DNA from: Eledone cirrhosa | Taxonomy: Eukaryota | DNA length: 64,000 bases | Direction of reading: 5' to 3' | NCBI GenBank assembly: GCA_964016885.1 | Contig: OZ024743.1 | Span: 123,690,001 to 123,754,000, forward strand | Part shown: in pieces, positions 20,785-51,100 of the stretch | Layout of the letters: each line of letters opens with the position of its first letter | How positions within the stretch are numbered: position 1 is the stretch's first letter | Made by a program: the position numbers and the translations under genes | Notes under the pieces: model-generated | Seen by the model: only the letters and a program-made list of their open reading frames with translations | What the model was told of the DNA's origin: nothing | Database searches by the model: none

Positions 20785-21135
20785 GGAAAAAATGAAACGA
20801 AATTTCATTTCCCACTCTTAGTACGGCTGTTACTTAAACATAAGTATGTACACGTACATACATATATGTATACAGACGTACAGTAGTATGTATATATATA
20901 TATACATACATGCACACATATATATATGTACGTATGGATTCACCGAACATTTATTATAATGCTCGGTGTGTTTGTAAACAAACATCCCGTATTAAGCCGT
21001 AGTGTCCAGCAACCATCGTTGCCCGTTTGTTCAACACTGACAAAGGAACGCTGTACTAGTTTCAAGCTTATTAGCTATCGTCAGCAACGTATACCTTCCT
21101 GCCAGATTGCTGAACGTATATACTTACCTTTATGT
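20785..21135 (-). mobile_element. Linear copy of the ~430-bp HHR repeat family
   Basis: Sequence shared with the 4255, 26356 and 50445 loci. Confidence 0.8.
21049..21089 (-). ncRNA. Type I minimal hammerhead ribozyme
   Basis: Minus strand: cgttg-CTGACGA-tagct aata agctt-GAAA-ctag-TA-cagcg, with a palindromic helix III. Confidence 0.8.
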
Positions 21136-21532
21136 ATCTTTGTTAGTTTGAATAGAGGTATTATATCTACAAGTTACACATCTGGAGAAATGTTAGTAAT
21201 ATGGAACGTGTATATGTATGTGCATACGAGGTTTTATGTATCTATCTACATGATACTCTTTAGATACGCATAAGGTGGTCCTAAACTCTGTTCTGATTGG
21301 ATAATTGGTGTATTATACACAAACACAAACACGCACGCAGAAACACACACACACAAGGACACACATAACACACACACACATATATATACACATATATATA
21401 CATGTATATACATGTATATACATATATATACATATATATATATATATATATACATACATATATATATATATACATACATATATATATATATACATACATA
21501 TATATATATACATATATATATATATATAATAT

Positions 21533-21930
21533 AATTGTTTCTACTTTAGGCACAAGGCCAGCAATTACCCAGTGCATTACTGGTACTTTATTTTATCGAC
21601 CCCGTAAGGATGAAAGGCAAATTCAACCTCGGCGGGATTTGAATTCACATCGTAAAGGGACGTAACTATGCTGGAAAGCATGGCGTCCTACCCTCTACCG
21701 ATAATGCCAATCCACCATAAAATATAATATAATATAATATAATATAATATAATATAATATAATATAATTGTTTCTACTGGTACTTTACTGGTACTTTATT
21801 TTATCGACCCCCGTAAGGATGAAAGGCAATATTAACCTCGGCGCGATTTGAACTCAGAATGGCAAGGGGCGTAACTCTATACGTCAAAGCATGGCATCCG
21901 ACCCTCTACCGATACTGCCAATCCACCGCC
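21533..21930 (-). mobile_element. Two SINEs (21533-21716, 21767-21930) separated by (TAATA)n
   Basis: Match to the SINE consensus. Confidence 0.85.
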
Positions 21931-22379
21931 ATCCATATAACATAATATAATATGATATAACATAATATAATATGTAATATAATATAATATGTAATATATG
22001 TGTGTGGCGTGCGCATACATCTGTGGTTTGTAAGCAGCTATTATTACAAAACTAATATTTCTATTTGCGCTCTCTTCTACTAGCACATTACGCACTCGCT
22101 CTGAACAATTCACATTGCATGCATACCCAAAAGCAGAAAGTTATTTCTAGACACACTTCTGCGCATATTTTGTGTGTCGAGTGTAACAAATAGGGAAATT
22201 TAATGGTTGGTGAATAGTATTAAATATGACTTCAAAGGACTAAATTAGTTATATGTTAATATATATATTGTATATGCATTCATTTATATATTACGCTGTT
22301 CATATATATTCGCCGTGAATATATTAATATAACATTGGGAATATATATAATGATATAAATGTATTAATTTTCTATTTAA

Positions 22380-22996
22380 AGTTATATATACATATATGAG
22401 CAGCATACACTCATGCGCACACACACACACGTGTGCACACAAGTACGTACACATACACGCATATATATGTGTGTGTATATATATATATATATATATATAC
22501 ACACACATATATATATATATATACACACATATACACACATATGCACACACATACATATACATACACACACACACACATATATACACACACATATATGCAC
22601 ACACACATCCACACACATATACATATATATATATATATATATATATATATATATGTATATGTGTGTGAGTGGGTGTATATATATGTGTGTGTGTATATAT
22701 ATATATATATGTATGTGTGTGCATATGCGTGTGTGTGTATATATATATATGTGCGTGTATATATATATATACATACACATGTGTGTGTGCACACACACAG
22801 ACACACACACACACACACACACACACACATATATATATATATATATATTGTTATACTTTGGAAGGGTCATGTTGCCTACTCAGAAACGAAATATATATAT
22901 ATATATGTGTGTGTGTGTGTGTGTGTATATATATGTGTGTGTGTGTGTGTGCGCGCGCACACACATGTGTATATATATATATATATATATATATAT
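22380..22996. repeat. Compound (TA)/(CA)/(TG) microsatellite block
   Basis: Directly visible. Confidence 0.95.
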
Positions 22997-48864: not shown

Positions 48865-49357
48865 TTTATTATATTTTGAACACCTGATGATATCACCGCA
48901 TTCATACGGAACCCGGTCATTGAAATGATCATAGTATAATAAAACTTTCAATGATTTACACAAGTCCAGCCTCCTGTTATTTTATTATAATATATATATA
49001 TATATACACATATATATATATATAACTGTATATATATTATATATATATATAACTGTGTATATATTATATATATATATATATATATATATATATATATATA
49101 TATATATATATATATATGTGTGTGTGTGTGTGTGTATGTATGTATATATATATTATAATTTGGCAATAACCTTTCGTTCAAACAATTATTCCTCCTTTTA
49201 GAGTAATACCATTTCAAAGTTACCTTTATAGTGATATAGGCACACACATACATACACACACGTCCGCACACACACACACACACACATACATATATATATA
49301 TATATATATATATATATATATATATATATATATATATATATATATATATATATATAT

Positions 49358-50382
49358 ACTAGCTGAGGTACCCAGCGTTGCTAGGGTTTATGTAATACAA
49401 TTGTTTGTTGTGCAGAAATAACACTTGATGAAGCTCTCGTTTGAAATAACTCTTATAGGAAAACACGGTCATCGTCGGGGATGTACACACCACGGCCAAC
49501 TGATTAATGCGACCCGCAGAGGCCTTCTATTCGTCCCGTAAGATGTTCCATTCGGTTAAATATATGCATGTTAGCAGCAAAGATGACACAGCCTAGGTTG
49601 CGAAGGTAATTTTTAAATCTCCTTATATATGTCAAATGTGGCCCGTTGAAGATTTATATTCGGTTCACAAAGGATTCCGCCCCGTATACATTTTTGGAAA
49701 GTACCCCCGCATTACCCAACCAGAGCCCATAAATCCCATTTGTCTGGGTAAAACTGGGCCTGTGGAGGGCAAATTCAATTGTTATCCATCCCATTGTTGC
49801 TCAGCCCTCCGTCCCGCTGGAGGAAACCATCCACTGCACATAAGTGGTGTATCTATGATGTTTGAAAAAAGCATCTGCGACATTCGATATTGCAGTGTTT
49901 TCGTTTTATTAAGGTGCCCTGGGGAAACTTTTAACACCTTATTGATACATAAATAATGCACCTCTACAGTTTAAAGCAAATTAGTTGCTCATATCAGAAG
50001 AAACAAACCAAATGAAAAATAGGTTTGTATGGCTTTTTACCTTCCGCGAGTTGTCTGGAATAATTCAGCCTAAAGTCATCCTTAGCACATAATTTATCTA
50101 TGTTTCAATTTTAAAAGAAATCGGTTGAGAACTTTAAAAGTTATGACAAAAAATAACATTCATATGAGCATTTGCATGCAAATATCCTATTGATTTATAA
50201 AAAAATCGATGCAGTCTGGAAATTATCGATTTTCTTTTTACTTCAAAGTACGTAAGAAATCAAATGGACATGAGAGCCACACGCGTGTCAAGTTTCATCA
50301 AGATCGGTTTAGTAGTTTTTGAGTTTTAGGTTCACAAACAAATCCACAAACAAACACAAACAGACAGAAATTGCCATTTATA
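49358..50382 (-). mobile_element. Non-autonomous Helitron in (TA)n
   Basis: ACTAG plus hairpin CCCAGCGTTGCTAGGG at the left end (3' end on minus); microsatellite-like 5' end. Confidence 0.65.
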
Positions 50383-50444
50383 TATATATATATATATATA
50401 TATATATATATATATATATATATATATATATATATATATATATA

Positions 50445-51100
50445 AATATGTATACAGACGCACAGTAGTATGTATATATATATATATATACATGCACATA
50501 TATATATATATGTACGTATGGATTCACCAAACAATTATCACAATGCTCGGTGTGTTTGGAAACAAACATCCCGTATTAAGCCGTAGTGTCTAGCAACCAC
50601 CGTTGCTCGTTTGTTCAACACTGACAAAGGAACGCTGTACTAGTTTCAAGCTTGTTAGCTATCGTCAGCAACGTATACCTTCCTGCCAGATAGTTGAACG
50701 TCCGAAAGTATATACTTTCCTTATGCATATTAACGGCTGAGTAGCCCAATTTGCATATCGAGTGGGTTAATCGGCCGGGTGCACCGAAAACGATAAACGG
50801 AAAAAATGAAACGAAATTTCATTTCCCACTCTTAGTACGGCTGTTACTTAAATATAAGTATGTATACGTACATACATATATGTATACAGACGCACAGTTG
50901 TATGTATATATATATATACATACATGCACACATATATATATGTACGTATGGATTCACCGAACATTTATTATAATGCTCGGTGTGTTTGTAAACAAACATC
51001 CGGAATTAAGCCGTAGTGTCTAGCAATACATACTATATATACATACTACTGTGCGTCTGTATACATATATGTGTGTACGTATACGTACTTATATTTAAGT
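50445..51100 (-). mobile_element. Partial tandem (period about 430 bp) plus an inverted arm of the HHR repeat family; HHR at 50633-50673 (-)
   Basis: GGATTCACC recurs at 50520 and 50950; cgttg-CTGACGA-tagct aaca agctt-GAAA-ctag-TA-cagcg. Confidence 0.8.

What the first reader, a model, noticed from the sequence alone, without database searches (positions are those of the whole stretch)
20785..51100. A ~430-nt HHR monomer seen in four architectures, with helix I covariation
One family appears as a linear copy (20785), two fold-backs (4255, 26356) and a head-to-tail partial tandem with an inverted arm (50445-51100), which reveals the joining sequence at 50760-50800 and a period of about 430 bp. 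Helix I is cgttg/cagcg at 21049 and 50633 but cgatg/catcg at 26578, a compensatory change. This matches the profile of a non-LTR retrozyme copied from a circular or multimeric RNA.
Basis: partly seen in the sequence, partly recalled or inferred. Interest (0 to 1): 0.72.

Follow-up and report, generated by a model that had tools for sequence, protein, structure and literature searches.

The report
Abundant hammerhead retrozyme with Penelope footprints
The four repeats are copies of one abundant, non-coding 430-base element with a hammerhead motif predicted to cut its own RNA; it is likely a retrozyme, a known kind of small parasite, and likely pasted into TA repeats by Penelope-type jumping-gene enzymes, probably from an RNA circle.

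Summary
Confirmed: a new member of a known class. The four loci belong to one non-coding family with a ~430-bp unit and a type I hammerhead on the minus strand. The genome holds 12,834 exact copies of the 31-nt core, and pure tandem arrays reach ~50 units.

The insertions carry PLE footprints: (TA)n targets, ragged 5' ends, and two fixed 3' ends 56 nt apart. Of 30 fold-backs with two canonical ends, 28 have one long and one short end. 5' ends do not pile up at the cleavage site, so the template was a circle or an uncut multimer. Units of one insertion share private variants, which favours a circle but does not prove it.

Corrections: the 4255 copy has no ribozyme, both 26356 cores carry the same core mutation, and the helix I 'covariation' is one pair. 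Cleavage, expression, circularity and the helper PLE are untested. This scan already noted the same pattern for other retrozyme families (310, 466, ~500 nt) in this genome.

The parts
20784..21140 (-). 5'-truncated single copy (m62-425, haplotype 1b), long 3' end at 20784
   Evidence: flank 21135-21320 single-copy
21029..21115 (-). type I hammerhead domain with extended helix I; core 21054-21084 intact; predicted cleavage between 21054 and 21053
4251..4463 (-). left arm of fold-back (m166-374), short 3' end in (TA)n; no ribozyme
4462..4701 (+). right arm of fold-back (m178-423), long 3' end in (TA)n; no ribozyme
26356..26713 (-). left arm of fold-back (m25-371), older subfamily, short 3' end in (TA)n; hammerhead core 26583-26613 mutated (GUAA, palindrome lost)
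26714..27132 (+). right arm of fold-back (m29-430), long 3' end in (TA)n; core 26810-26840 with the same mutations
50445..50792 (-). 3' partial unit of the tandem (m1 to about m350), haplotype 1a, ending atypically at a (TA)n tract
50613..50699 (-). type I hammerhead domain; core 50638-50668 intact; one-pair helix III with 6-nt palindrome; U.U at the base of helix II; predicted cleavage between 50638 and 50637
50793..51026 (-). 5' partial unit of the tandem (m197-430); unit junction m430|m1 at 50793|50792
50793..50848 (-). 56-nt segment (m375-430) between the family's two fixed 3' ends, equivalent to the PLE 'tail'
51034..51100 (+). short inverted arm (m311-377) abutting an unrelated inverted-repeat element

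Best explanation
This is a high-copy, non-coding family with a ~430-bp unit and a type I hammerhead motif, most likely a metazoan non-LTR retrozyme that is likely mobilised in trans by Penelope-like element (PLE) proteins, probably from a circular RNA.

SHOWN in DNA: one unit in dispersed truncated copies, partial tandems, fold-backs and pure arrays; (TA)n targets; two fixed 3' ends 56 nt apart; one long and one short end per fold-back; copying straight through the cleavage site.

INFERRED: (1) Arrays are transcribed on the hammerhead strand; the promoter is unknown. (2) Neighbouring hammerheads pair through the 6-nt palindrome and cut as a double hammerhead, releasing monomers that a host ligase would circularise. 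(3) A PLE RT-endonuclease nicks both strands of a TA repeat and starts reverse transcription at two internal sites of the RNA (m374 and m430), one per strand. (4) Each cDNA runs back a variable length, from under one unit to several rounds. Two joined cDNAs give a fold-back, one gives a linear or tandem copy. (5) Some arrays later grow at the DNA level.

Odds: retrozyme moved by PLE machinery about 0.85; a circle rather than an uncut linear multimer as the usual template about 0.55.
For: Abundance: 12,834 exact 31-nt cores; 4,041 exact 3'-end 36-mers; 7 insertions and 0.73% of bases in 40 evenly spaced 10-kb stretches.
Pure arrays of ~50, ~40 and 10 units. Longest ATG frame 47-51 aa, GC 38%.
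Predicted circle: -148 kcal/mol, z -9.4 against 40 shuffles, hammerhead helices I and II formed, antisense -123. Double hammerhead -46.6 against -29.8 for two single active folds.
PLE footprints: 28 of 30 fold-backs with two canonical ends are long+short (2 long+long, 0 short+short, p 4e-7; 14 more of the 44 have an atypical end). 108 of 138 canonical 3' ends abut a TA repeat against 6.8% background. Autonomous PLEs here show two ends 41 and 50 nt apart. PLE RT starts internally at two sites and extends both strands in vitro (PMC11167929).
Template not a cut linear monomer: 10 of 107 5' ends fall in m150-170 (p 0.36); 32 of 172 arms cross the site at least twice.
One template per insertion: haplotype agrees between inverted arms in 23 of 27 and along tandem arms in 21 of 25, against 0.33 expected; shared derived variants are 0.58-0.73% per site within insertions against 0.07% between.
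In 37 of 38 insertions with two or more hammerheads at least one core is intact.
Against: No RNA evidence of any kind, and cleavage is untested. In a published test only 1 of 9 Xenopus retrozyme dimers cleaved (10.64898/2026.07.22.740005). The active folds computed here lie above the minimum-energy fold (-46.6 against -56.6 for two molecules, with a partial helix I).
No helper was identified: none of four PLE families examined carries the unit. The long end resembles one Neptune-like 3' end only weakly (p 0.002-0.01 uncorrected, 15 comparisons).
Units in one insertion still differ by 2.3-3.4%. 4 of 25 tandem arms and 4 of 27 fold-backs mix haplotypes, so more than one template is sometimes used.
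Old arrays show DNA-level higher-order repeats (dimer in L156 and L170, period 4 in L152). In the young 10-unit fold-back L231 two variants are shared by only some units.
The window's 26356 fold-back has the same dead core in both arms, and hammerhead cleavage was dispensable for PLE insertion in vitro.
Samples were partly chosen by exact core or 3'-end matches, which inflates conservation and crossing counts.
Confidence: 0.8

Rival explanations
1. Same element and same PLE machinery, but the template is the uncut linear read-through transcript of genomic arrays. Circles, if made, are by-products and the hammerhead is a passenger for mobility.
For: In vitro, uncleaved RNA is the main PLE substrate and ribozyme mutants insert equally well (PMC11167929). 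Internal initiation explains both fixed ends without a circle. Mixed-haplotype arms (4 of 25), partly shared variants in L231 and the dead-core fold-back at 26356 fit multimer templates. Long source arrays exist.
Against: Many insertions carry their own private variants in every unit and in both arms (9 insertions listed; L017 has four such variants). That needs a one-unit bottleneck or later homogenisation. Core-inactivating changes are private to single units in most cases.
Confidence: 0.35
2. The unit is simply the pLTR (3' end) of an autonomous PLE not yet found, and the copies are 5'-truncated stumps.
For: All insertion footprints are PLE-like (PMC8557442). Vertebrate retrozymes derive from pLTRs (10.64898/2026.07.22.740005). 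Only about 112 of tens of thousands of insertions and six PLE proteins were examined.
Against: Copies longer than one unit continue into another copy of the unit, up to ~50 times, not into an ORF. Of 64 single-orientation insertions, 4 have a PLE fragment within 1.5 kb upstream, at four different unit positions; in the four read, the PLE's own end or a TA tract lies between. The unit is absent from the ends of PLE-A, PLE-B (46), PLE-C (53) and the Hydra-like family (85; many of those loci stop short of the 3' end). PLE-B and PLE-C have different hammerheads of their own.
Confidence: 0.08
3. A satellite or MITE-like repeat spread by DNA-level processes (unequal crossover, slippage, fold-back repair), with a fossil hammerhead.
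For: Higher-order repeats in old arrays and some whole-insertion duplications show that DNA-level amplification occurs.
Against: It does not explain fixed 3' ends with ragged 5' ends, the long+short rule (28 of 30), TA targeting or genome-wide dispersal.
Confidence: 0.04

Closest known systems
Metazoan non-LTR retrozymes (coral, mussel, axolotl Rtz331/Rtz353; Cervera and de la Pena 2020, PMC7229834; passages and parts 2-4 of 6 read, supplement not readable)
   Same: Non-coding, low-GC tandem unit with a type I hammerhead; dimers to large multimers; predicted highly paired circle with the ribozyme helices formed. The one-pair helix III with palindromic loop resembles HHR_Amex1, and the U.U at the base of helix II resembles HHR_Amex2.
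   Different: Unit of 430 bp is at the long end of that paper's 150-450 bp range; both weak features occur in one ribozyme; internal microsatellite hairpin; mostly dispersed short or two-armed insertions in (TA)n with two fixed ends, which the parts read do not describe. RNA circles are shown there and not here.
Retrozymes as non-autonomous PLE derivatives (Li, Clavereau and Pollet 2026, bioRxiv 10.64898/2026.07.22.740005; parts 1-3 of 5 read, supplements closed)
   Same: Co-occurrence with PLEs; dispersed monomers plus local arrays; PLE dependence proposed.
   Different: There the link is sequence homology to pLTRs in Xenopus. Here no homologous pLTR was found, and the link is the insertion footprint.
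EN+ Penelope-like elements: pLTR, inverted 5'-truncated copy and tail (Craig et al. 2021, PMC8557442, passages and supplement rows read; Frangieh et al. 2024, PMC11167929, parts 1-2 of 4 read)
   Same: 5' truncation, partial tandems, adjacent inverted copy, tail on one end only, (TA)n preference, two internal RT start sites.
   Different: No ORF; tail of 56 nt rather than 30-40; unit repeated up to ~50 times; canonical hammerhead with a long helix I rather than a minimal one.
Non-autonomous Chlamys PLE derivatives such as MRC1 (PMC8557442, passage)
   Same: Non-coding PLE parasites with multicopy head-to-tail insertions.
   Different: Those share 3' sequence with a known autonomous family; here only a weak ~15-nt likeness was found.

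Membership tests
Metazoan non-LTR retrozyme | Type I hammerhead in each unit | tested here: met
   Core motif and helices; 34 of 40 first units intact in loci not chosen by the core; no Rfam hit
Metazoan non-LTR retrozyme | Short (150-450 bp), low-GC, non-coding unit | tested here: met
   Mostly 420-434 bp; GC 38%, longest ATG frame 51 aa
Metazoan non-LTR retrozyme | Tandem arrays with at least two consecutive complete hammerheads | tested here: met
   Arrays of 10, ~40 and ~50 units; 41 of 50 cores of the commonest intact form in L152-154
Metazoan non-LTR retrozyme | No attached ORF | tested here: met
   limited to 112 insertions and a six-protein panel
Metazoan non-LTR retrozyme | No LTR, primer-binding site or polypurine tract | not tested
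   No search for these motifs was run; no terminal direct repeats beyond the unit itself were seen in the maps
Metazoan non-LTR retrozyme | Highly self-paired predicted circle | tested here: met
   z -9.4 for the circle; z -4.7 without the microsatellite hairpin; prediction only
Metazoan non-LTR retrozyme | Self-cleavage in vitro | not testable with these tools
   Only energies computed
Metazoan non-LTR retrozyme | Expressed as linear and circular RNA | not testable with these tools
   No RNA holder listed
Metazoan non-LTR retrozyme | Target-site duplication larger than 4 bp when present | tested here: inconclusive
   Ends lie in TA repeats, so a duplication cannot be read
PLE-type insertion (works like) | Two 3' ends, with the tail on one side only | tested here: met
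   28 of 30; 4 further long+short and 1 short+short among short arms missed by the first filter
PLE-type insertion (works like) | 5' truncation, inverted copy, (TA)n target | tested here: met
pLTR of an autonomous PLE | Unit fixed to the end of an RT-GIY-YIG ORF | tested here: not met
   a rare or unsampled parent is not excluded
Satellite with snRNA-type internal promoter (newt satellite 2) | Host snRNA promoter elements in the unit | tested here: not met
   Score 3.7 against 42-52 for real U1/U2 promoters; 29% of 150 shuffles score as high; host promoters lack the octamer

The most novel reading that the evidence does not exclude
The insertions are genomic fossils of single RNA circles copied round and round from both strands of a nicked TA repeat by one PLE enzyme pair, starting at two fixed sites 56 nt apart. 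Insertion-specific variants, some of them possibly A-to-I editing marks on the RNA, are written into every unit of both arms. This would be DNA evidence for the proposed but unshown circle-templated step of the retrozyme life cycle, and it offers a 430-nt substrate for reconstituting PLE transposition.
Probability: 0.4. Interest if true: 0.62.

Novelty: new member of a known kind. Interest (0 to 1): 0.38.

Why it matters
The class is known, and its link to PLEs was proposed in 2020 and supported for vertebrates in 2026. This family adds a very large sample (order of 50,000 insertions, about 0.7% of the stretches sampled) whose ends show how a retrozyme is written into DNA: two internal start sites, one per target strand, as seen for a purified PLE protein. 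That makes two open questions testable, namely whether a circle is the template and which PLE helps. Eight literature searches listed no description of this family or of the long+short rule for retrozymes. Subscription journals and the unread supplements of PMC7229834 and the 2026 preprint may hold one. Within this scan the pattern is already recorded for other families, so the added value is one more independent family.

Tried and rejected
Rfam: no hammerhead among the rows shown.

Sequencing runs: no RNA holder listed. Four runs of unknown kind, kept as contigs, hold the family but say nothing on expression.

The DNA search with the 68-nt 3' end returned nothing because common words are skipped; a pattern search was used instead.

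21135-21320 as the body of a longer parent: rejected, it is single-copy.

The Neptune-like PLE 2.7 kb away (53754-55016) as parent: rejected. The unit occurs in 4 of 20 long stretches, never at a fixed place, and the two junctions read are separated by TA tracts. PLE-B (1 of 20 loci), PLE-C (1 of 20, the same place) and the Hydra-like family (3 of 25) gave the same result. A supposed sister family was only a frameshifted PLE-A copy.

snRNA-type promoter, suggested by a conserved octamer (76 of 86 copies) and by newt satellite 2 (cited through PMC2220036; the original paper is not held; its octamer is recalled): rejected. No Pol III B box on the sense strand.

Pile-up of 5' ends at the cleavage site: none. 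Statistical covariation: not supported beyond one pair.

Selection on the core: suggestive only. One shared dead core in 38 insertions is too few to test, and the samples are biased.

A-to-G skew on the hammerhead strand: 46/5205 against T-to-C 24/4866 (p 0.02). Shared variants are 7 of 16 A-to-G against 11 of 155 private ones, but they fall on only 4 distinct sites and are not independent. Kept as a lead only.

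Full report
Observation. The four loci are real and homologous. The hammerhead lies on the minus strand, with cores at 21054-21084, 50638-50668 and 26583-26613 and the mirror of the last at 26810-26840. I number the unit m1-m430 on that strand (m1 = window 50792). The ribozyme core spans m125-155, predicted cleavage falls after m155, and a microsatellite hairpin fills m267-372. The 20784 copy is 5'-truncated (m62-425) and runs into single-copy DNA. The 4251 fold-back holds no ribozyme. The 26356 fold-back has the same GAAA-to-GUAA change and broken palindrome in both arms. 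The 50445 copy is 1.4 units plus a 67-bp inverted arm.

The ribozyme. It is a type I hammerhead with a long interrupted helix I (about 20 pairs), a 4-bp helix II on a U.U mismatch, and a one-pair helix III whose loop is part of a 6-nt palindrome. Axolotl retrozyme ribozymes show these weak features separately and cut well only as dimers (PMC7229834). Here a double hammerhead scores -46.6 kcal/mol against -29.8 for two single active folds, though both lie above the minimum-energy fold. Rfam did not list it. Over 91 insertions the pair is U.G 74, A-U 8, G.U 4, U.U 3, other 2. It marks subfamilies and is weak evidence for the structure.

The family. The window lies in a 3.0-Gb genome; earlier scan notes call it an octopus, which I did not verify. 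There are 12,834 exact matches to the 31-nt core and 4,041 to a 36-nt 3'-end word of the youngest subfamilies, with 0 for the reversed controls. Forty evenly spaced 10-kb stretches held 7 insertions, 0.73% of bases, which extrapolates to roughly 50,000 insertions (Poisson range about 20,000-110,000). At least four haplotypes differ by 1-8%, and copies of the youngest lie 1.8% from their majority. Among 112 mapped insertions, 34 were under one unit, 61 one to two units, 12 two to four and 5 longer; 48 had both orientations. This sample was drawn partly by exact matches and partly picked for arrays, so it is not a census. Pure arrays of 10, ~40 and ~50 units occur. The unit has no frame over 51 aa, and the predicted circle folds at z -9.4.

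Not a PLE end. I examined four co-resident PLE families: a young Neptune-like family with 784-aa frames, of which window 53754-55016 is a truncated copy; a second young family with 775-aa frames; an older one; and a Hydra-like one. The clade labels are my recollection from motifs, not a tree. None carries the unit at its end, and two have different hammerheads of their own. Of 64 single-orientation insertions, 4 had a PLE fragment within 1.5 kb upstream, each at a different unit position, with that PLE's own end or a TA tract between. A rare parent is not excluded.

How it inserts. The 3' ends fall at two sites, m374 and m430, and 108 of 138 such ends abut a TA repeat (background 6.8%). After dropping 3 duplicated insertions there are 44 fold-backs: 28 long+short, 2 long+long, 0 short+short and 14 with an atypical end (p 4e-7 for 28 of 30). 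Short arms missed by my first filter add 4 long+short, 1 short+short (the window's 50445 copy, whose left end proved atypical) and 1 other. Both window fold-backs obey the rule. This is the PLE 'tail', present at one end only (PMC8557442). A purified PLE protein nicks and extends both strands of AT-rich DNA and starts at two internal sites of its RNA that bound the tail (PMC11167929). The two young autonomous families here show ends 41 and 50 nt apart. The long end resembles a Neptune-like end over about 15 nt (p 0.002-0.01, uncorrected over 15 comparisons), too weak to name a helper.

Which RNA is copied. A linear monomer cut at both ends would stop cDNA at m156. Only 10 of 107 scorable 5' ends lie in m150-170 (p 0.36), and 32 of 172 arms pass the site at least twice. 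So the template is a circle or an uncut multimer. For a circle: arms and units of one insertion agree in haplotype (23 of 27 and 21 of 25, against 0.33 expected) and share derived variants 8-10 times more often than different insertions do; L017 repeats four such variants in its units, including both arms. Against: units still differ by 2.3-3.4%, 8 of those 52 cases mix haplotypes, old arrays show DNA-level dimer and tetramer expansion, the young 10-unit fold-back L231 shares two variants among only some units, and gene conversion could homogenise arms. Ribozyme cleavage was not needed for PLE insertion in vitro. I put the circle at about 0.55. A mild A-to-G excess on the hammerhead strand hints at editing of the RNA template but rests on four sites.

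Promoter. A conserved octamer suggested an snRNA-type promoter as in newt satellite 2. The host's U1 and U2 promoters lack an octamer, and the unit scores at background against their motifs. How the unit is transcribed remains open. No RNA data were available.

Comparison and verdict. The element meets every DNA-testable criterion for a metazoan non-LTR retrozyme that I tested and works like a non-autonomous PLE. Cleavage and circular RNA are untested. Eight paper searches listed no description of this family. The supplement of PMC7229834 could not be read and that of the 2026 preprint is closed; either may list it. A sequence look-up in earlier scan notes found nothing for this unit, but notes on 310-, 466- and ~500-nt families of the same genome report the same two-armed pattern (unchecked AI notes). 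Verdict: new member of a known kind, with a useful mechanistic footprint; interest 0.38.

Noticed in passing
window 23320-23679: A second, unrelated hammerhead fold-back (cores at 23419 minus and 23580 plus, long helix II, a different palindrome); relatives seen in L070 and L037.
   Followed up: partly
window 53681-55600: 5'-truncated copy of a very young Neptune-like PLE with an inverted 3' end in (TA)n; 100 scored copies at 97-98% identity, a full 784-aa frame and an upstream 434-aa frame; no canonical hammerhead found in its end.
   Followed up: yes
window 1868-2309 and 5250-6070: A fold-back and a GIY-YIG fragment with its 3' end, resembling Hydra-like PLE ends with hammerhead-like motifs.
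   Followed up: partly
window 51108-51650: Element with long terminal inverted repeats (MITE-like) that abuts and may have truncated the 51034-51100 arm.
   Followed up: no
L282-L313 upstream regions; L108 about 380-1060: U1 and U2 promoters of this genome share a pyrimidine-rich element near -255, an AT-rich element near -90 and a proximal element near -57, with no octamer. The same distal element occurs in a Hydra-like PLE end in L108, a possible internal promoter.
   Followed up: partly
L076, L077, L078, L204, L252, L253: A further recurrent hammerhead motif, unrelated to this family, in PLE-flanking DNA.
   Followed up: no
L249 about 2700-2900 (element sense): The 3' region of one PLE family is joined directly to the hammerhead-bearing end of another; possible template switch or nested insertion.
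   Followed up: no
L098, L235, L122, L169: Whole insertions duplicated nearby, in direct or mirror form.
   Followed up: no
window 16070-20050, 47660-48385, 61696-63891: A 4-kb array with a 9-bp period; a Pif1 helicase fragment, probably Helitron (label recalled); a broken LINE-like RT region on the minus strand (label recalled).
   Followed up: no
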